Notes under the pieces: model-generated | Told to the model about the DNA's origin: nothing | The model's input: only the letters and a program-made list of their open reading frames with translations | Database searches by the model: none | Position numbers and translations under genes: made by a program | In this document: one piece after another, positions 671-4,025 of the stretch | Layout of the letters: each line of letters begins with the position of its first letter | How positions within the stretch are numbered: the stretch's first letter is position 1 | DNA from: a virus | Lineage: Duplodnaviria > Heunggongvirae > Uroviricota > Caudoviricetes | Length of the DNA: 5,880 nucleotides | IMG/VR virus record: IMGVR_UViG_2711768167_000003 | Coordinates: 1-5,880 of that record | Reading direction: 5' to 3' (one strand)

Positions 671-1096
671 TCAGTGCATCACCACAGCATTACCCGCCGG
701 GCCACCACGATTCATCTGATTGAAACCGGCGATTGCCACTGCGATAAAATCATCAGCGTCTCTCACCAGCCGTTCTCGTGTCTCCAGCAGCTCCCTGAAA
801 TAGGCTGAGCTGTGGCTACGCATTCTGGCCACCAGCAAAGGCGGCATTGCCTTTTCGATCGCTGGTAGTAACGCCTGAATTTTTTCAACCGCATCAGGGG
901 TGTCTTTCTCCACCCAGCGGAAAATTTTCTGGGTATTACGGGCCAGGGCTTCCGGATGGCTGTCGTCATACAGTTCCGGAAACGTCATACCCAGCTCAAA
1001 ATAAGCCCGGGTTATTTCAGCTGCCGGAACTTTTTCACCATCCGGACGCGACCAGGCATTCATCGCCATGCGGATATGCTCATGCTTGATTTTCAT
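671..1096 (-). CDS. ydaT: YdaT-like protein (Rac prophage YdaT family, proposed CII-like regulator, toxic on overexpression), 141 aa
   Basis: ORF in track; N-terminus MKIKHEHI matches the start of E. coli YdaT as recalled, and length is about the same. GGGAGGG RBS (rc of 1102..1108) upstream. Start codon overlaps the stop of the upstream ydaS-like gene (ATGA on the minus strand at 1096..1093), implying translational coupling. Confidence 0.72.
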   Translation of the reverse strand: MKIKHEHIRMAMNAWSRPDGEKVPAAEITRAYFELGMTFPELYDDSHPEALARNTQKIFRWVEKDTPDAVEKIQALLPAIEKAMPPLLVARMRSHSSAYFRELLETRERLVRDADDFIAVAIAGFNQMNRGGPAGNAVVMH

Positions 1097-1353
1097 GAAT
1101 CACCCTCCCGAGCATATGCAGTGTTAGCCTTATATCCAGCAGGCAAGCCATCGGTGGGATTAGGGTATTTATCAGGGCGCAATTCATGCGGAGTCACTCC
1201 CCACTCAAGCGCCGCACATGCTGGAATAACCTCCTCCGCCGGAACTCGTTTTTTAAACCACACACTTATAGTTTGTGGCGTTTTACCAAGACGACGCCCT
1301 AATTCTGACTGACTCATTATCGACAGGATTTTTACTTGAGTACTTTTTTGCAT
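1093..1353 (-). CDS. ydaS: Cro-like HTH protein of the YdaS/DicC family, 86 aa
   Basis: ORF in track; HTH segment SQSELGRRLGKTPQTISVWFKK followed by VTPHELRPDKYP, resembling the YdaS-type Cro-like family. Strong GGAGGG RBS (rc of 1358..1363) 4 nt upstream of the ATG. Transcribed divergently from the repressor gene. Confidence 0.7.
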   Translation of the reverse strand: MQKSTQVKILSIMSQSELGRRLGKTPQTISVWFKKRVPAEEVIPACAALEWGVTPHELRPDKYPNPTDGLPAGYKANTAYAREGDS

Positions 1354-1473
1354 GCTTCCCTCCAGATTTTACGATGGCACCGATAATTACAAATTTAAAC
1401 TTAAATTTCAACTTCTATTTGTAATGTCACTTATCATTTTTTTCTGTAGGATTGCGGGACTAGTTTACGAGGT
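1354..1473. promoter_or_regulatory. Divergent promoter/operator region between the Cro-like (ydaS-like) and repressor (dicA-like) genes
   Basis: 120-bp AT-rich intergenic region between divergent genes. Perfect palindrome AAATTTAA-ac-TTAAATTT at 1391..1408, and a 9-bp inverted repeat ATTACAAAT (1386..1394) / ATTTGTAAT (1417..1425). Exact -35/-10 elements could not be assigned confidently by eye. Confidence 0.55.
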
Positions 1474-1872
1474 GTGGTGATGATCTTTGTAAAACGCCTT
1501 CAGCAGGTGTTGCAGGAATTGAATATAAACCAGTCAGAGCTGGGAAGACGTCTTGGTGTAAAACCCCAATCCGTGCAAGGTTGGTTGAAAGGCGTGATGC
1601 CAAGAATGGATAAACTGGAAAAATTAGCAGAGCTCTCACAACATCCCGTCCATTGGTTCTTTATGGAAGAAGAAACTCTCGGCGATAGGATGGCTGTATC
1701 CAGCAATGACAACCAACCACAACTTACAGAACAACAAAAAAAAATCATATCGCTTTTAGATGAGTTACCTCAAAGCGACGCAGAGCAGATCATTCGAGAA
1801 ATGGAGCAAAAACGCGATTTCTATAAACGAAAACTTGAAGAGTTACTGCGGCAGAAAAACAAAACTGCCTGA
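1474..1872 (+). CDS. dicA: DicA-like XRE-family HTH repressor (phage immunity repressor analogue), 132 aa if GTG 1474 is used, 130 aa from ATG 1480
   Basis: ORF in track; N-terminal HTH NINQSELGRRLGVKPQSVQGWLKG; C-terminal helical region (KKIISLLDELPQSDAEQIIREMEQKRDFYKRKLEELLRQ) resembles the DicA C-terminus as recalled. No LexA-like peptidase domain. GAGGTG (1468..1473) is better placed as an RBS for ATG 1480 than for GTG 1474, so the true start is probably 1480. Confidence 0.7.
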   Translation: MVMIFVKRLQQVLQELNINQSELGRRLGVKPQSVQGWLKGVMPRMDKLEKLAELSQHPVHWFFMEEETLGDRMAVSSNDNQPQLTEQQKKIISLLDELPQSDAEQIIREMEQKRDFYKRKLEELLRQKNKTA

Positions 1873-1903
1873 TGCGTTTCTTTTCTGGAACGAGCATCAG
1901 GCA
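1866..1903. terminator. Candidate bidirectional hairpin terminator between the convergent dicA-like and higA genes
   Basis: 10-bp perfect inverted repeat TGCCTGATGC (1866..1875) / GCATCAGGCA (1894..1903) with an 18-nt loop. On the minus strand the stem is followed by GTTTTGTTTTT (rc of 1853..1865), fitting a Rho-independent terminator for higBA. No T-run follows on the plus strand. The left arm overlaps the last codons and stop of the dicA-like gene. Confidence 0.4.
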
Positions 1904-1918
1904 AATGACTAGCGGATG

Positions 1919-2278
1919 TTATAATCCCACCAAGCTTTCCAGGGGGATTCCAAATTGATTATGAAGACGTCGAATCATTGGTAACGTAAGGCTTCTGGTG
2001 CCATTCAACACCTCGTAAACCCGATTTTTTTTCCCAATTGCGGGCTCCAAATCTTTCACAGTCAGACCCTGCTGTTCCATACGAAATCTTATAGCTTCAA
2101 TTGGGGATGGTGGTTCAATGGGATAATGTTTTTTTTCATATTCCTCTATTAGCAAACACATCACCTCAAAGAAATCCCCCTCAGGCGTGTTAATTTCCGG
2201 TTCATTGTCGAACATGGGCTCAACAGCACGCAACGCTGCTTCATAATCTTGCTCTGTACGAATAGGTTTGATGTTCAT
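1919..2278 (-). CDS. higA: HigA-family antitoxin (type II TA antitoxin with C-terminal XRE HTH), 119 aa
   Basis: ORF in track; C-terminal HTH LTVKDLEPAIGKKNRVYEVLNGTRSLTLPMIRRLHNQFGIPLESL resembles the C-terminal HTH of E. coli HigA as recalled. Lies immediately downstream of the higB-like gene with a 2-nt gap, the toxin-first order typical of higBA. Confidence 0.8.
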   Translation of the reverse strand: MNIKPIRTEQDYEAALRAVEPMFDNEPEINTPEGDFFEVMCLLIEEYEKKHYPIEPPSPIEAIRFRMEQQGLTVKDLEPAIGKKNRVYEVLNGTRSLTLPMIRRLHNQFGIPLESLVGL

Positions 2279-2280
2279 GC

Positions 2281-2583
2281 TTACTCCAGTTCGATGGTAT
2301 CAGCATCAATGGCATCGTATTCCTTGTGGTTTCCAATGAATTTAACAAACACCCATCCTCGCTGATACGCAATTGAAACAATTAAACGGTAATGATTACC
2401 TTTTATGTTGAATACCACGCGCCGGTTTTTCAATATACTGGCCGTTCGGTATTGAGCCTTAATGTCTGCCGGGCTTTTCCAGTCAGCTTTTGCTGTCTCA
2501 TCCACCCATGCCCTTAGCGGTTGTTCTGCATCGGGATTCTTCGCCCAAAAATCCCTGAGTGTTTTAACTGAGATAATCTTCAT
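2281..2583 (-). CDS. higB: HigB-family toxin (RelE/ParE superfamily ribosome-dependent mRNA interferase), 100 aa
   Basis: ORF in track; segment RRVVFNIKGNHYRLIVSIAYQRGWVFVKFIGNHKEYD aligns by eye with the HigB segment HYVFNVGGNELRVVAMVFFESQKCYIREVMTHKEYD, including the HKEYD motif. Toxin-upstream, antitoxin-downstream arrangement. Confidence 0.8.
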   Translation of the reverse strand: MKIISVKTLRDFWAKNPDAEQPLRAWVDETAKADWKSPADIKAQYRTASILKNRRVVFNIKGNHYRLIVSIAYQRGWVFVKFIGNHKEYDAIDADTIELE

Positions 2584-2700
2584 AGCTGCATATTAGTCCC
2601 GTTTTGGGACCAATGCAACTACCAGAAATTACAATTTTAATGATAAATATATTGACCAATTAAATTTTAATTTGTAGATTGTATTCACCAACCCTCCCCG
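2584..2700. promoter_or_regulatory. AT-rich regulatory region upstream of higB (minus strand) containing a candidate plus-strand promoter for the dicB operon and operator-like repeats
   Basis: Candidate sigma70 promoter on the plus strand: -35 TTGACC (2652..2657), 17-nt spacer, -10 TAGATT (2675..2680). AT-rich repeats AATTACAATTTTAA (2627..2640) and ATTAAATTTTAATTTGTA (2659..2676) resemble the motifs in the 1354..1473 operator region. Small hairpin GTCCC-gtttt-GGGAC at 2596..2610 lies in the probable higB 5' UTR. The higB promoter itself was not resolved. Confidence 0.45.
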
Positions 2701-2866
2701 CCCCACAGAACGCAGGGCAATACTTCGAGTTACCAGGCAGTGGTCAGGGGTTAAGTAGCCAGCCCGAGGCGTATGAACATGACGGCAGGGTTTAACCTTA
2801 ACTATGCAGCAGGTTTTTGTTCCGCTACTCCGGCGTTAAGGGGAAACAGCACTGGGAGAAATCAGT

Positions 2867-3085
2867 ATGCAGAAGCGAGAACCCGTCATCATCGCGCCAG
2901 ACTATACCGATGATGAACTTTATGAGTGGATGCGCCAGAAAATTAAGGCAGCGCAGGACCTGAAATGGGCCAATGAAGCCAGGGCTAAGCAGGCTGAAAA
3001 TCTGTCCGCTCTGGAGCAGGATATCACCAATCTGGAAAAAGCAGCGGCATTAAGCATTGCCAGAATGATTACATACCCGCGTTAA
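2867..3085 (+). CDS. ydfC: YdfC-like small protein, first gene of the dicB-type operon, 72 aa, function unknown
   Basis: ORF in track; GGAG about 10 nt upstream of the ATG. Length and position (upstream of dicF and dicB, same strand) match Qin ydfC. The protein has a predicted helical, coiled-coil-like C-terminal half. The homology call rests on synteny and recalled similarity, not a search. Confidence 0.55.
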   Translation: MQKREPVIIAPDYTDDELYEWMRQKIKAAQDLKWANEARAKQAENLSALEQDITNLEKAAALSIARMITYPR

Positions 3086-3421
3086 TAGCTAACCAACGAA
3101 GCTAAGGTTGGTAATTAAGGAGTTCTCCACGGGTAAGGTGGAGTACGTGCGCCGGACACGGGTGAGCATCCGGCACTGACAGTTTACTGAAAGGATATTT
3201 CCCTGAAAAGTCAGACCATAACGCGAAAGCGCACGGCGAGGTAGCTGGTTCATAGATAGTCTGTCGTTAAATTTTCGTCGACCGTGCGCTTCCGGTTGTG
3301 GCACTCCGCGAAATGGCGCGGCGTAATCATGGCGGGGTACCCTTCCCCTTGAGGACACCGGGTTGTCAGGCTGACCATGCGCCTGAGTGACAACCCCGCT
3401 GCAACGCCCTCTGTTATCAAT

Positions 3422-3474
3422 TTTCTGGTGACGTTTGGCGGTATCAGTTTTACTCCGTGACTGCTCTGCCGCCC
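3422..3474 (+). ncRNA. dicF: DicF small regulatory RNA (Hfq-dependent sRNA that represses ftsZ translation)
   Basis: Sequence TTTCTGGTGACGTTTGGCGGTATCAGTTTTACTCCGTGACTGCTCTGCCGCCC followed by TTTTT matches the DicF sRNA as I recall it (about 53 nt). Sits between ydfC-like and dicB on the same strand, as in Qin. No protein-coding potential in this stretch. Confidence 0.85.
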
Positions 3475-3480
3475 TTTTTA
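3437..3480 (+). terminator. Rho-independent terminator forming the DicF 3' end
   Basis: GC-rich stem GGCGGTA (3437..3443) / TGCCGCC (3467..3473) with an internal CAGT/ACTG sub-stem, followed by T-run TTTTT (3475..3479). Confidence 0.6.
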
Positions 3481-3483
3481 AAG

Positions 3484-3631
3484 TGAATTTTGTGATGTGG
3501 TGAATGCGGCTGAGCGCACGTGGAACAGTTAAAACCAAAAACAGTGTTATGGGTGGATTCTCTGTATCCGGCGTTAATTGTTAACTGGTTAACGTCACCT
3601 GGAGGCACCAGGCACCGCATCACAAAATTCA
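3484..3631. repeat. 14-bp perfect inverted repeat bracketing the dicF-dicB spacer; tandem GTTAAC palindromes inside
   Basis: TGAATTTTGTGATG at 3484..3497 and its exact reverse complement CATCACAAAATTCA at 3618..3631; partial extension GGTG/CACC inward. Internal GTTAAC-tg-GTTAAC at 3580..3593. The right arm ends 5 nt before the dicB RBS (AGGA 3638..3641). Confidence 0.8.
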
Positions 3632-3648
3632 TTGTTTAGGACGCGATA

Positions 3649-3831
3649 ATGGAAACGTTATTACCAAACGTCAATACGTCTGAAGGTTGTTTTGAAATTG
3701 GTGTCAGAATCAGTAACCCTGTATTTACTGAAGATGCCATTAATAAGAGAAAACACGAACGGGAGCTATTAAATCAAATATGCATTGTTTCAATGCTGGC
3801 CCGTTTACGCCTGATGCAAAAAGGACGCTGA
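3649..3831 (+). CDS. dicB: DicB cell-division inhibitor (acts with MinC to block FtsZ ring formation), 60 aa
   Basis: ORF in track; METLLPNVNTSEGCFEIGVRISNPVFTEDAINKRKHERELLNQICIVSMLARLRLMQKGR closely matches E. coli DicB as recalled. AGGA RBS (3638..3641) 7 nt upstream. Immediately downstream of dicF. Confidence 0.88.
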   Translation: METLLPNVNTSEGCFEIGVRISNPVFTEDAINKRKHERELLNQICIVSMLARLRLMQKGR

Positions 3832-3833
3832 CA

Positions 3834-4025
3834 ATGAATACAGCATTTGCACTCGTTCTGACAGTTTTTCTTAATACAGGCGAACCAGTCGATCTTGTTA
3901 TTGGTATACATGACTCAATGAAAGAATGCATGGCTGCCGCAGCGGAACAGAAAATTCCCGGCAACTGTTATCCGGTTGATAAAGTTATTCGCATGGACAA
4001 TAACGAAATCCCGGCTGGTCTTTAA
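3834..4025 (+). CDS. ydfD: YdfD-like DUF1482 small protein (Qin YdfD causes lysis when overexpressed), 63 aa
   Basis: Internal ATG 3834 of track ORF 3780..4025, chosen because AAGGA (3821..3825) lies 8 nt upstream and it starts 2 nt after the dicB stop. MNTAFALVLTVFLNTGEPVDLVIGIHDSMKECMAAAAEQKIPGNCYPVDKVI fits the DUF1482 pattern (hydrophobic FALVL N-terminus, two conserved Cys, GxCYP). Confidence 0.72.
   Translation: MNTAFALVLTVFLNTGEPVDLVIGIHDSMKECMAAAAEQKIPGNCYPVDKVIRMDNNEIPAGL

What the first reader, a model, noticed from the sequence alone, without database searches (positions are those of the whole stretch)
1919..2700. higBA toxin-antitoxin cassette embedded between the prophage repressor and the dicB operon
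In the Qin layout I recall, dicA is followed on the same strand by ydfA, ydfB, ydfC, dicF and dicB. Here the ydfA/ydfB position is occupied by an oppositely oriented higB-higA pair. Its upstream region (2584..2700) is the same AT-rich stretch that carries the best candidate promoter for the dicB operon and operator-like repeats. That suggests a TA module acquired into the immunity region, possibly under shared control with the kil-type operon and possibly acting as prophage stabilisation or abortive-infection defence.
Basis: partly seen in the sequence, partly recalled or inferred. Interest (0 to 1): 0.55.

Follow-up and report, generated by a model that had tools for sequence, protein, structure and literature searches.

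The report
HigBA toxin-antitoxin in prophage immunity region
A real, intact two-gene HigB/HigA toxin-antitoxin cassette sits between the repressor gene and the early-left promoter of a Qin/CP-933P-like E. coli prophage. This slot is already known to hold such cargo, so it is a well-supported but fairly ordinary new example.

Summary
higB (2281-2583, minus) has a HigB_toxin domain (113 bits). higA (1919-2278, minus) is an Xre-HTH antitoxin. Both are full-length homologues of E. coli K-12 HigB/HigA and are under strong purifying selection.

The cassette lies between a DicA/PaaR2-type repressor gene (1480-1872) and a PL-like promoter (2652-2680) that drives ydfC-DicF-dicB.

higBA does not replace ydfA/ydfB: relatives with the same repressor and the same higBA also carry ydfA-ydfB downstream of the promoter. 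The window has a separate clean ydfAB deletion.

Every prophage found with this repressor carries higBA at the same spot: 148/148 complete E. coli genomes and 22/22 IMG/VR contigs. It is fixed cargo of one immunity type, not a recent insertion.

In other immunity types the same slot is empty, or holds paaA2-parE2 (CP-933P), or holds a HigB-HigA-SecB-like module (H-19B/BP-4795).

higBA brings its own promoter with a palindrome between -35 and -10, conserved in plasmid copies, and probably makes a leaderless mRNA. Shared control with the dicB operon is not supported.

Verdict: a new member of a known kind, of modest interest.

The parts
671..1096 (-). ydaT-like gene (CII-equivalent regulator), the conserved left flank of the exchangeable immunity module
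   Evidence: PF06254 YdaT_toxin. 84% aa identity to YdaT of the CP-933P-type prophage in L008. Function as a CII analogue comes from PMC8630535.
1093..1353 (-). cro-like / dicC-like HTH regulator (YdaS family)
   Evidence: PF15943 and HTH_3; phrog_35. No detectable similarity to CP-933P YdaS, so it is immunity-specific.
1354..1479 (.). OR-like divergent control region with operator-like repeats (TTACAAATTTAA at 1387-1398, inverted copy at 1413-1424)
   Evidence: (I4, D2, D3, I5). A minus-strand promoter-like site TTGAAA-17-AATTAT lies at 1411-1383.
1480..1872 (+). prophage repressor, DicA/PaaR2-like (130 aa, HTH plus a C-terminal helical region, no S24 peptidase)
   Evidence: HTH_3. NF007257 DicA at 52 bits, below its cut-off. 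22% identity to K-12 DicA over 125 aa. Weak C-terminal similarity to PaaR2. Called as 130 aa in public assemblies.
1866..1903 (.). hairpin between the convergent repressor and higA genes; on the minus strand a U-rich run follows it (likely higBA terminator)
   Evidence: Perfect 10-bp arms (I22). Plus-strand fold -25 kcal/mol, z=-5.0. On the minus strand the stem is followed by GUUUUGUUUUUCUG. Terminator function is inferred.
1919..2278 (-). higA antitoxin (119 aa, N-terminal domain plus C-terminal Xre HTH)
   Evidence: HTH_3. K-12 HigA 5IFG_B/5YCL_A, E~2e-9, residues 6-112. 10 synonymous and 0 non-synonymous differences from L001. A GGAG Shine-Dalgarno lies inside the end of higB, with a 2-nt gap between the genes.
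2281..2583 (-). higB toxin (100 aa, RelE-fold HigB_toxin family)
   Evidence: PF09907 112.9 bits. K-12 HigB 5IFG_A E=9e-8, full length. PADLOC PD-Lambda-2_A 1.6e-40. dN/dS 0.05-0.21.
2590..2618 (-). higBA promoter carried by the cassette: -35 TTGCAT (2618-2613), 17-nt spacer holding the palindrome GTCCCnnnnnGGGAC (2596-2610, putative HigA operator), -10 TAATAT (2595-2590). The A of the higB ATG (2583) is 7 nt after the -10, so the mRNA is predicted to be leaderless.
   Evidence: Coordinates. The palindrome is unique in the window. The same TTGnnn / AGTCCCA-N3-TGGGACT / TAnnAT layout is conserved in six other copies in other contexts: a relative prophage, a copy after gene Q, and four plasmids. 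It is also conserved in 35 loci of this prophage type. Function is inferred; autoregulation through promoter palindromes is shown for K-12 HigBA (PMC2814082, PMC11980606).
2619..2628 (.). non-conserved joint between the cassette promoter and the phage operator/PL region
   Evidence: It is the only unconserved block in the intergenic alignment of 15 distinct sequences from 35 loci. Homology with plasmid copies ends here.
2629..2680 (+). OL/PL-like region: operator-like repeats (2629-2640, 2666-2677) and promoter TTGACC-17-TAGATT (2652-2680) for the ydfC-DicF-dicB operon
   Evidence: Nearly invariant across 35 loci. Same position relative to the shared leader as the likely PL933P promoter downstream of parE2 in L008; the paper places PL933P there but its sequence was not checked (PL933P repression by PaaR2 and YdaS in PMC8630535).
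2687..2866 (+). conserved leader of the early-left operon, shared by prophages with different immunity regions; contains the ydfA-ydfB deletion junction at 2840-2852
   Evidence: 4,056 of 5,426 E. coli genomes match the 1400-3200 query, mostly only from about window 2683-2696 onward. Alignments. No better-than-random RNA fold.
2867..3085 (+). ydfC
   Evidence: Annotated as YdfC in relatives; phrog_1744.
3423..3474 (+). DicF small RNA
   Evidence: Rfam RF00039, 76.7 bits, E=3e-16.
3649..3831 (+). dicB cell-division inhibitor
   Evidence: PF05358 127.5 bits; NF049927 126.5 bits.
3834..4025 (+). ydfD-like DUF1482 gene
   Evidence: PF07358, 81 bits.

Best explanation
The feature is an autonomous, functional type II toxin-antitoxin cassette of the E. 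coli K-12 HigBA (YgjN/YgjM, Pfam PF09907) family.

**How the cassette probably works**
- HigB is most likely a ribosome-dependent mRNA endonuclease.
- HigA neutralises it and, through its C-terminal HTH, represses the cassette's own promoter. It would do so by binding the GTCCC-N5-GGGAC palindrome that sits between the -35 and -10 elements.
- Transcription probably starts at or next to the higB AUG, giving a leaderless mRNA. higA is translationally coupled to higB.
- The transcript probably ends at the hairpin that overlaps the 3' end of the repressor gene.

**Where it sits**
- The cassette lies, in inverted orientation, in the variable cargo slot between the prophage repressor gene and the OL/PL-like control region. 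That region drives the ydfC-DicF-dicB-exonuclease operon of a Qin/CP-933P-like lambdoid prophage.
- This position corresponds to rexAB in phage lambda.
- It is part of the exchangeable immunity module (cro-like gene, repressor, operators, TA) and is inherited with that one immunity specificity.
- The absence of ydfA/ydfB is an unrelated deletion downstream of the promoter.

**Most likely biological role**
- Addiction: it keeps this immunity module and prophage from being lost or swapped.
- It may also give abortive-infection protection against superinfecting phages.

**Shown versus inferred**
- Shown here: gene identities, homology, selection, linkage, slot alternation and promoter/operator conservation.
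- Inferred: toxicity, autoregulation, leaderless start, termination and biological role.
For: **Family identity**
- PF09907 at 112.9 bits and HTH_3.
- Full-length homology of both proteins to solved K-12 HigB/HigA.
- K-12 HigB cleaves translated mRNA. HigA neutralises it and autoregulates through promoter palindromes (PMC2814082, PMC11980606).

**The genes are functional**
- dN/dS is 0.05-0.21 for higB.
- higA shows 10 synonymous and 0 non-synonymous changes against L001.
- Synonymous sites are saturated while aa identity stays at 82-95% against plasmid copies.
- Both ORFs are intact in 33 of 34 loci.

**Own promoter and operator**
- The TTGnnn / AGTCCCA-N3-TGGGACT / TAnnAT layout is conserved in copies on IncX4, IncF and MOBF plasmids, on a plasmid carrying phage tail genes, and after gene Q of another prophage.
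- It is also conserved in 35 loci of this prophage type.
- The ATG lies 6-7 nt after the -10 in 5 of 7 diverged copies.

**Fixed linkage to this immunity type**
- 148 genomes carry the repressor, and the same number, 148, carry repressor plus higBA together.
- 22/22 IMG/VR contigs and 10/10 exact-protein places also show the pair.

**The slot alternates between prophages**
- Empty in K-12 Qin, S88 and 042.
- PaaA2-ParE2 in the CP-933P type and in strain 08-00022.
- HigB plus a HigA-like protein plus a SecB-like protein in H-19B, BP-4795 and ST2-8624.

**The TA lies inside the swappable module**
- YdaT is 84% identical to CP-933P YdaT and the leader is conserved.
- The cro-like gene, repressor, operators and TA all differ.

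**Precedents for the role**
- paaA2-parE2 in this slot is addictive and stabilises a plasmid (PMC8630535).
- HigBAC, in the 'variable defence locus downstream of cI', aborts lambda-vir infection (bioRxiv 10.1101/2024.02.24.581848).
- PD-lambda-2 has the best PADLOC matches here (HigB 1.6e-40, HigA 1.3e-42) and defends against lambda-vir (PMC9519451).
Against: - No experiment on this cassette exists in the searched literature.
- Toxicity, neutralisation, autoregulation, transcription start and terminator use are all inferred.
- In PD-lambda-2 the roles were unexpected: the B protein was toxic and the HigB-like A protein rescued it (PMC9519451). 'HigB = toxin' is therefore not guaranteed for every close relative, although B's toxicity there may come from the peptidase domain that is missing here.
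- The two-gene form has no obvious phage sensor (no chaperone, peptidase or third gene), which weakens the defence reading.
- Perfect linkage with the repressor could reflect simple physical proximity in a young, clonal module rather than selection. Repressor and higBA are about 96% identical across carriers.
- A phage operator half-site (2629-2640) lies only 10 bp upstream of the higB -35, so some influence of the phage repressor cannot be excluded.
Confidence: 0.8

Rival explanations
1. The cassette is primarily a prophage-encoded abortive-infection or superinfection-exclusion system. Infection by another phage would shut off host transcription or titrate HigA, labile HigA would decay, and freed HigB would cleave mRNAs and abort the infection. 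This would protect lysogen kin as RexAB does for lambda.
For: - The slot downstream of the repressor is described as a variable defence locus that holds rexAB in lambda and HigBAC in lambdoid prophages. HigBAC defends against lambda-vir and Bas25 (bioRxiv 10.1101/2024.02.24.581848, read).
- The best PADLOC matches of both proteins are to PD-lambda-2 A and B, a validated anti-lambda Abi system.
- A HigB-family module recurs at the same slot in H-19B-type Stx phages.
Against: - The parts that sense phage or are required for defence in those systems are absent: no SecB-like chaperone or ChAD tail, no M78 peptidase domain, and no PF14350 third gene. PD-lambda-2C was required for defence (PMC9519451).
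- Near-identical two-gene cassettes sit on conjugative plasmids, where the classical role is stabilisation.
- No phage-challenge data exist.
Confidence: 0.35
2. higBA expression is wired into the lysis-lysogeny switch. The phage repressor or the cro-like protein, bound at the operators between the back-to-back promoters, would control higB as well as PL. Toxin level would then change on induction or establishment.
For: - The two -35 elements are only 33 bp apart, and an operator-like half-site (2629-2640) starts 10 bp upstream of the higB -35.
- Plasmid copies carry a second upstream palindrome that the prophage copy lacks. Phage operator DNA takes its place, so some regulatory input was replaced.
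- In CP-933P the TA in this slot is indeed under repressor/Cro/CII control (PMC8630535).
Against: - In CP-933P that control exists because the TA is co-transcribed with the repressor. Here the cassette is on the opposite strand with its own complete promoter and operator, conserved in non-phage contexts.
- The 10 bp between the cassette promoter and the phage operator are unconserved in sequence, which suggests abutting rather than interleaved modules.
- No operator-like repeat overlaps the higB -35, spacer or -10.
Confidence: 0.15
3. The cassette is a selfish passenger with no benefit to phage or host. It persists only through its own addiction property and its tight physical linkage to the repressor gene.
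For: - Perfect linkage over only about 50 bp from the repressor.
- The same cassette spreads across unrelated replicons, as expected of a selfish module.
- Many chromosomal type II TAs have no demonstrated function (PMC8138530 title and abstract, listed).
Against: - This cannot be distinguished from the stabilisation role by sequence alone.
- The repeated, independent recruitment of different TA modules to this same slot in sister prophages suggests the location is favoured, not accidental.
Confidence: 0.2

Closest known systems
E. coli K-12 HigBA (YgjN/YgjM), Pfam PF09907 HigB_toxin family; structures 5IFG, 5YCL, 6KML
   Same: - Toxin-first gene order.
- About 100-aa HigB_toxin protein, followed by an antitoxin with an N-terminal domain plus a C-terminal Xre HTH.
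- Both proteins align over their full length.
- A palindrome lies in the promoter region, as described for K-12 autoregulation (PMC2814082, PMC11980606).
   Different: - Only distantly related in sequence (about 36 and 41 bits).
- HigA is shorter (119 vs 138 aa).
- It is located in a prophage immunity region rather than at the chromosomal ygjNM locus.
- The promoter is predicted to give a leaderless higB mRNA. This was not checked for K-12.
paaR2-paaA2-parE2 of cryptic prophage CP-933P / Sp12 (E. coli O157:H7)
   Same: - Same prophage architecture: ydaT (84% identical), a cro-like gene, a CI-like repressor without a peptidase domain, a TA module, an OL/PL-like promoter, the conserved leader, ydfC, dicB and an exonuclease.
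- The TA lies inside the immunity region.
- It has been shown experimentally to be addictive and was proposed to protect the immunity region from replacement (PMC8630535).
   Different: - Unrelated toxin and antitoxin: a ParE-family toxin (family members include both gyrase inhibitors and mRNases, PMC11980606) plus PaaA2, which lacks a DNA-binding domain, against a RelE-fold RNase plus an HTH antitoxin.
- paaA2-parE2 is co-transcribed with, and regulated by, the repressor. higBA here is on the opposite strand with its own promoter and operator.
HigBAC toxin-antitoxin-chaperone systems of lambdoid prophages (E. coli NT1F31). Apparently the same type sits between cI and N in Stx phages H-19B, BP-4795 and ST2-8624.
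   Same: - A HigB_toxin family toxin (43% aa identity to the H-19B-type copy; PF09907).
- A HigA-like HTH partner.
- The same slot downstream of the repressor (bioRxiv 10.1101/2024.02.24.581848).
   Different: - HigBAC has a longer antitoxin (218 aa) and a third, SecB-like gene (PD-T4-9_C match 3e-11), and is co-oriented with cI.
- The window has neither an extension nor a third gene, and is inverted.
- Identity of the H-19B-type module with NT1F31 HigBAC was not checked by sequence.
PD-lambda-2 anti-phage system (ECOR42; Vassallo et al. 2022)
   Same: These are the best defence-database matches. HigB matches PD-Lambda-2_A over 1-96 of 97 positions (1.6e-40). HigA matches the first 119 positions of PD-Lambda-2_B (1.3e-42).
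   Different: - PD-lambda-2B is about 400 aa with a C-terminal M78/ImmA-IrrE peptidase (PF06114).
- A third gene (PF14350) is required for defence.
- B, not A, was the toxic part (PMC9519451; supplement read).
- All three of these features are missing or untested here.
Phage lambda rexA-rexB
   Same: - Positional analogue: accessory genes between the repressor gene and OL/PL.
- Expressed in the lysogen, with an exclusion function (established knowledge; also stated in the preprint read).
   Different: Unrelated proteins and mechanism. rexAB are co-transcribed with cI.

Membership tests
Type II TA, HigBA of the K-12 YgjN/YgjM type (PF09907) | Toxin carries the HigB_toxin (RelE-fold) domain | tested here: met
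   PF09907 E=8e-33, 112.9 bits, model positions 1-74 of 74. Full-length alignment to 5IFG_A.
Type II TA, HigBA of the K-12 YgjN/YgjM type (PF09907) | Toxin gene first, immediately followed by an Xre-HTH antitoxin homologous to HigA | tested here: met
   higB 2281-2583, then higA 1919-2278 on the same strand with a 2-nt gap. HigA vs 5IFG_B E=2e-9 over residues 6-112.
Type II TA, HigBA of the K-12 YgjN/YgjM type (PF09907) | Promoter with palindromic operator(s) bound by HigA/HigBA (autoregulation) | tested here: inconclusive
   The palindrome at 2596-2610, between -35 and -10, is conserved in 7 diverged copies and 35 loci. Binding and repression were not tested.
Type II TA, HigBA of the K-12 YgjN/YgjM type (PF09907) | HigB is toxic (cleaves translated mRNA) and HigA neutralises it | not testable with these tools
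   Only indirect support: strong purifying selection on both genes and co-retention in 33 of 34 loci.
PD-lambda-2 defence system | Component A: HigB-like protein | tested here: met
   PDLC03979, 1.6e-40.
PD-lambda-2 defence system | Component B: HigA-like HTH fused to a C-terminal M78/ImmA-IrrE peptidase (PF06114) | tested here: not met
   HigA is 119 aa and matches only positions 1-119 of the 402-position B model. There is no peptidase hit. Only 46 bp separate the higA stop from the repressor stop.
PD-lambda-2 defence system | Component C (PF14350), required for defence | tested here: not met
   There is no third gene. Eight ORFs flanking the cassette (671-4025) are assigned to other families; the two window-end ORFs were not scanned. 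Definition from PMC9519451 and its supplement.
Toxin-antitoxin-chaperone (HigBAC) systems | SecB-like chaperone gene, and an antitoxin with a C-terminal chaperone-addiction extension | tested here: not met
   There is no third gene, and HigA ends right after its HTH. By contrast, the H-19B-type module has a 218-aa antitoxin and a PD-T4-9_C-like gene.
paaR-paaA-parE three-component systems | ParE-family toxin with PaaA2 antitoxin, co-transcribed with the CI-like regulator | tested here: not met
   The toxin is HigB_toxin, not ParE, and the antitoxin is HTH, not PaaA2. The cassette is on the strand opposite to the repressor.
paaR-paaA-parE three-component systems | Location in the ydaS/ydaT-type prophage immunity region, between the repressor and a PL-like promoter | tested here: met
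   YdaT 84% identical. Leader and promoter position are homologous.
Qin-type dicB operon | ydfA-ydfB-ydfC-DicF-dicB-ydfD in this order downstream of the repressor | tested here: not met
   ydfC, DicF, dicB and a ydfD-like gene are present. ydfA and ydfB are absent from the window, although present in relatives with the same higBA.

The most novel reading that the evidence does not exclude
The inverted two-gene HigBA would be a minimal, sensor-less relative of PD-lambda-2/HigBAC that still works as a prophage defence or induction-coupled switch.

- Its distal HigA operator has been replaced by phage operator DNA, and it sits back-to-back with PL.
- Repressor occupancy in the lysogen, and PL firing or repressor loss on induction or superinfection, would then change higBA transcription or the toxin/antitoxin balance.
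- That would link the prophage's immunity state directly to HigB activation.

The recurrent capture of different TA modules by this one slot would then reflect a general 'immunity-module guard' function.
Probability: 0.15. Interest if true: 0.55.

Novelty: new member of a known kind. Interest (0 to 1): 0.27.

Why it matters
- **A third TA type in one slot.** The interval between the repressor gene and PL in Qin/Rac/CP-933P-like E. coli prophages now has a third, differently organised TA type: inverted, self-promoted HigBA. The other two are paaA2-parE2 and HigBAC.
- **Linkage with immunity type.** A TA can be inherited in perfect linkage with one immunity specificity. This supports the published idea that TAs in immunity regions guard those regions against loss or replacement.
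- **An experimental contrast.** It offers a natural comparison between a TA co-transcribed with the repressor and one that is autonomous and divergent from PL.
- **Annotation.** ydfA/ydfB loss and higBA presence are independent events.
- **Limits.** The cassette is already annotated as HigB-family by the standard pipeline and belongs to well-known families, so the gain is incremental.

Tried and rejected
- **'higBA replaces ydfA/ydfB': rejected.** Relatives carry both. The window's junction matches the ydfB-ydfC boundary of those relatives, not the ECs_2282 variant of O157.
- **'Recent insertion into this prophage type': rejected.** No empty site exists among 148 genomes or 22 viral contigs.
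- **Membership in PD-lambda-2 or TAC: considered and rejected.** This followed the strong PADLOC hits. The peptidase domain, the third gene and the chaperone are all missing.
- **Base composition:** it does not mark the cassette as foreign. higBA is 43% GC and the repressor 42%.
- **Genome-contig scan with the repressor:** no confirmed relative.
- **Near-identity DNA search of the INPHARED phage records:** only the leader matched, not the cassette.
- **NCBIfam:** no model hits for HigB or HigA.
- **Repressor operators:** I could not define them precisely. Only a half-site-like 12-mer is enriched, and the larger palindromes differ in span between OR and OL.
- **Conserved leader 2687-2866:** folding gave no stable structure (z=+1.6), and Rfam found nothing there.
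- **Not done:** I did not run structure prediction or the large protein-database searches. The Pfam, PDB and PADLOC matches already settle family identity.
Full report
**1. What is in the window**

The window is a complete 5,880-bp contig of a public draft assembly (JYEF01000018.1, recovered as L019). It covers the early regulatory region of a lambdoid prophage of the Qin/Rac/CP-933P kind. From left to right it holds:

- a ydaT-like gene, 671-1096, minus strand (PF06254)
- a cro/dicC-like HTH gene, 1093-1353, minus strand (PF15943)
- a 126-bp divergent control region
- a 130-aa DicA/PaaR2-like repressor gene, 1480-1872, plus strand
- higA, 1919-2278, minus strand
- higB, 2281-2583, minus strand
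- an AT-rich control region
- a conserved leader
- ydfC, 2867-3085
- DicF RNA, 3423-3474 (Rfam 76.7 bits against a gathering score of 48)
- dicB, 3649-3831
- a DUF1482/ydfD-like gene, 3834-4025
- the start of a RecE/YdfE-type exonuclease gene

**2.

HigB matches Pfam HigB_toxin (PF09907) over the whole model, at E=8e-33 and 112.9 bits against a cut-off of 27. HigA has an Xre-type HTH at residues 63-115.

Both proteins align end to end with the solved HigB and HigA of E. coli K-12 and Shigella (5IFG, 5YCL, 6KML), at E about 1e-7 and 2e-9. For that family, translation-dependent mRNA cleavage by HigB, neutralisation by HigA and autoregulation through promoter palindromes are experimentally established (PMC2814082; summarised in PMC11980606).

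The genes are not decaying:

- Against a 96%-identical relative, higA has 10 synonymous and 0 non-synonymous differences, and higB has dN/dS 0.21.
- Against copies with saturated synonymous sites, higB dN/dS is 0.05-0.07 and the proteins stay 78-95% identical.
- Both ORFs are full length in 33 of 34 loci examined.

**3. higBA does not stand in for ydfA/ydfB**

The best E. coli matches (strains VL7S7 and RMDEC332) have the same repressor and the same inverted higA-higB pair. They then have the same AT-rich region and leader, followed by ydfA (DUF1391), ydfB and ydfC. Several IMG/VR contigs show the same arrangement.

The three-way alignment shows that the window is collinear with these relatives except for a clean loss of about 310 bp. 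The loss runs from just before the ydfA Shine-Dalgarno to just before the ydfC Shine-Dalgarno. The junction is GGGGAAA|CAGCAC at 2840-2852.

So there are two separate variable slots. One lies upstream of the promoter, between the repressor and PL, and here holds higBA. The other lies downstream of the leader and holds ydfA-ydfB, or an oppositely oriented ECs_2282-family gene, or nothing.

**4. higBA is fixed in this immunity type but is cargo in the wider family**

Among 5,426 complete E. coli genomes:

- The repressor with its control region (1354-1872) occurs in 148.
- A place covering at least 80% of 1400-3200 also occurs in 148. This is only possible if both the repressor and higBA are present.
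- higBA alone occurs in 152.

All 22 IMG/VR contigs that encode this repressor have higA and higB at the same offsets. So do all 10 places that encode the exact HigB protein. No empty site was found.

At a deeper level the cassette is clearly mobile:

- An 80%-identical copy lies directly after the Q antiterminator gene of another prophage, which is the Stx/moron position.
- Copies 73-80% identical lie among the tail genes of a non-mobilizable E. coli plasmid and on IncX4, IncF and MOBF conjugative plasmids of Salmonella, Enterobacter and Serratia.

In sister prophages that share the ydaT gene and the leader but have other repressors, the same interval is occupied differently:

- It is empty in K-12 Qin, S88 and 042.
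- It holds PaaA2-ParE2 in the O157:H7 CP-933P type. The toxin there is essentially identical to PDB 5CW7.
- It holds a second PaaA2-ParE pair behind a different repressor in strain 08-00022.

In Stx phages H-19B, BP-4795 and ST2-8624, a 43%-identical HigB_toxin gene lies between cI and N, co-oriented with cI. It is followed by a 218-aa HigA-like gene and a gene resembling a SecB-like chaperone.

The TA therefore lies inside the exchangeable immunity module. YdaT is 84% identical to that of CP-933P and the leader is conserved. The cro-like protein is unrelated and the repressor only weakly related.

**5. Control region**

*Plus strand.* TTGACC-17-TAGATT (2652-2680) is the only good sigma-70 match in this intergenic region. 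It lies at the same position, relative to the shared leader, as the promoters of the other immunity types. These include the element downstream of parE2 in the CP-933P type. The literature describes that element as PL933P and shows it to be repressed by PaaR2 and YdaS (PMC8630535).

Most E. coli genomes match the window only from about 2687 onward, which is the predicted transcript start. Operator-like repeats link this region to the cro/repressor intergenic region.

*Minus strand.* The sequence reads TTGCAT (2618-2613), then a 17-nt spacer, then TAATAT (2595-2590). The spacer contains the palindrome GTCCCnnnnnGGGAC (2596-2610), which is unique in the window.

The same layout (TTGnnn, then AGTCCCA-N3-TGGGACT, then TAnnAT) is conserved upstream of higB in the plasmid copies and in the copy after gene Q. 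It is also conserved across 15 distinct sequences from 35 loci of this prophage type. It therefore belongs to the cassette and is the likely HigA operator.

The A of the higB ATG is 7 nt after the -10, and no Shine-Dalgarno sequence is present. Five of the seven diverged copies keep a 6-7-nt distance, so a leaderless higB mRNA is predicted. This is an inference; leaderless translation of the repressor is documented in CP-933P (PMC8630535). higA has a GGAG inside the end of higB.

Plasmid copies carry a second palindrome about 30 bp further upstream. The prophage copy lacks it and has phage operator DNA in its place. Between the cassette's -35 and the first phage operator repeat lie 10 bp (2619-2628) that are not conserved in sequence. 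This looks like the seam between two abutting modules.

A strong hairpin (1866-1903) overlaps the repressor's stop codon. On the minus strand it is followed by a U-rich run, so it is a plausible higBA terminator.

**6. Mechanism and role**

*Most likely mechanism (confidence about 0.8 for the molecular description).* This is an autonomous, autoregulated HigBA module. HigB is a ribosome-dependent RNase held in check by HigA. HigA or the HigBA complex represses the cassette promoter at the palindrome.

*The biological role is less certain.*

- Addiction and stabilisation of the immunity module is supported by three lines. One is the perfect linkage found here. The second is the plasmid distribution of the same cassette. 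The third is the demonstrated addictiveness of paaA2-parE2 in the same slot (PMC8630535).
[quoted passage not shown] HigBAC there aborts lambda-vir (bioRxiv 10.1101/2024.02.24.581848). It is also supported by the strong PADLOC matches to PD-lambda-2 A and B (PMC9519451).
- Against the defence reading, the sensing and accessory parts of those systems are absent here.
- Control shared with PL is possible in geometric terms but has no positive support.

**7. Comparison and novelty**

The cassette is a member of the PF09907 HigBA family. Domain, gene order and antitoxin homology are met. The operator is present but unproven, and toxicity is untestable here.

It is not a PD-lambda-2 system (no peptidase domain, no third gene). 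It is not a TAC (no chaperone, no extension). It is not a paaR-paaA-parE system.

The standard annotation pipeline already labels it a 'HigB family toxin'. No paper in the searched library describes this particular cassette or its placement.

I rate it a new member of a known kind. The particular features are:

- inverted orientation, back-to-back with PL
- a cassette-borne, probably leaderless promoter
- loss of the distal operator
- complete linkage with one immunity specificity

Interest is modest.

Noticed in passing
window 2687-2866: The roughly 165-180-nt leader after the PL-like promoter matches in most E. coli genomes (4,056 of 5,426 match the 1400-3200 query, mostly only from about 2683-2696 onward). 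It is conserved across prophages with unrelated repressors, operators and cargo. It shows no Rfam match, no better-than-random fold (z=+1.6), and only short mechanical ORFs. These prophages show no N-like gene between PL and ydfA, so a cis-acting role such as antitermination might be worth testing.
   Followed up: partly
window 2840-2852; L001 5440-5775; L008 3270-3605: The slot between the leader and ydfC is itself variable. It holds ydfA-ydfB, or an oppositely oriented ECs_2282-family zinc-binding gene (O157 and several IMG/VR contigs), or nothing (the window and its closest relatives)..
   Followed up: yes
L004 3501-4842; L005 3501-4842 (Stx phages ST2-8624, BP-4795; also H-19B and many Stx1a phages): Between cI and N these Stx phages carry three genes: a HigB_toxin gene, a 218-aa HigA-like gene and a gene matching the SecB-like PD-T4-9_C model. 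This is a toxin-antitoxin-chaperone layout. In most deposited records the HigB ORF is unannotated or 'hypothetical'.
   Followed up: partly
L003 4994-5659: An 80%-identical copy of the same higBA cassette sits 27 bp after the Q antiterminator gene of another E. coli prophage, which is the position used by stx and other morons. Here a Shine-Dalgarno-bearing 24-nt insert separates the -10 from the ATG.
   Followed up: partly
L021-L024, upstream of higB: Plasmid-borne copies carry two copies of the AGTCCCA-N3-TGGGACT palindrome, one in the promoter spacer and one about 30 bp upstream. The prophage immunity-region copies keep only the promoter-proximal one.
   Followed up: partly
L021 278-849 and 2494-3159: A 90-kb non-mobilizable E. 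coli plasmid carries this higBA among tail and baseplate genes. It also carries a second RelE/ParE-HigA pair about 2 kb away.
   Followed up: no
L040 about 2396-3056: One IMG/VR contig has an intact higB but a higA reading frame cut to 62 aa. The C-terminal 71 codons are still 100% identical in another frame. This is either a frameshift or a sequencing error.
   Followed up: no
window 3476-3669: The DicF-dicB spacer gives a sub-threshold match to Rfam STnc100 (37.2 bits against a gathering score of 47; E=1.5e-5).
   Followed up: no
window 1093-1353 compared with L025-L046: Among loci that share a 96-98% identical repressor and higBA, the cro-like protein is only 85-91% identical to the window's. 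The two arms of the switch therefore diverge at different rates or recombine.
   Followed up: no
L011 4230-5348: One relative with an identical repressor and higBA has Rha/Ash-family and KilR genes in place of DicF-dicB-ydfD downstream of ydfC. This shows further mosaicism of the early-left operon.
   Followed up: no
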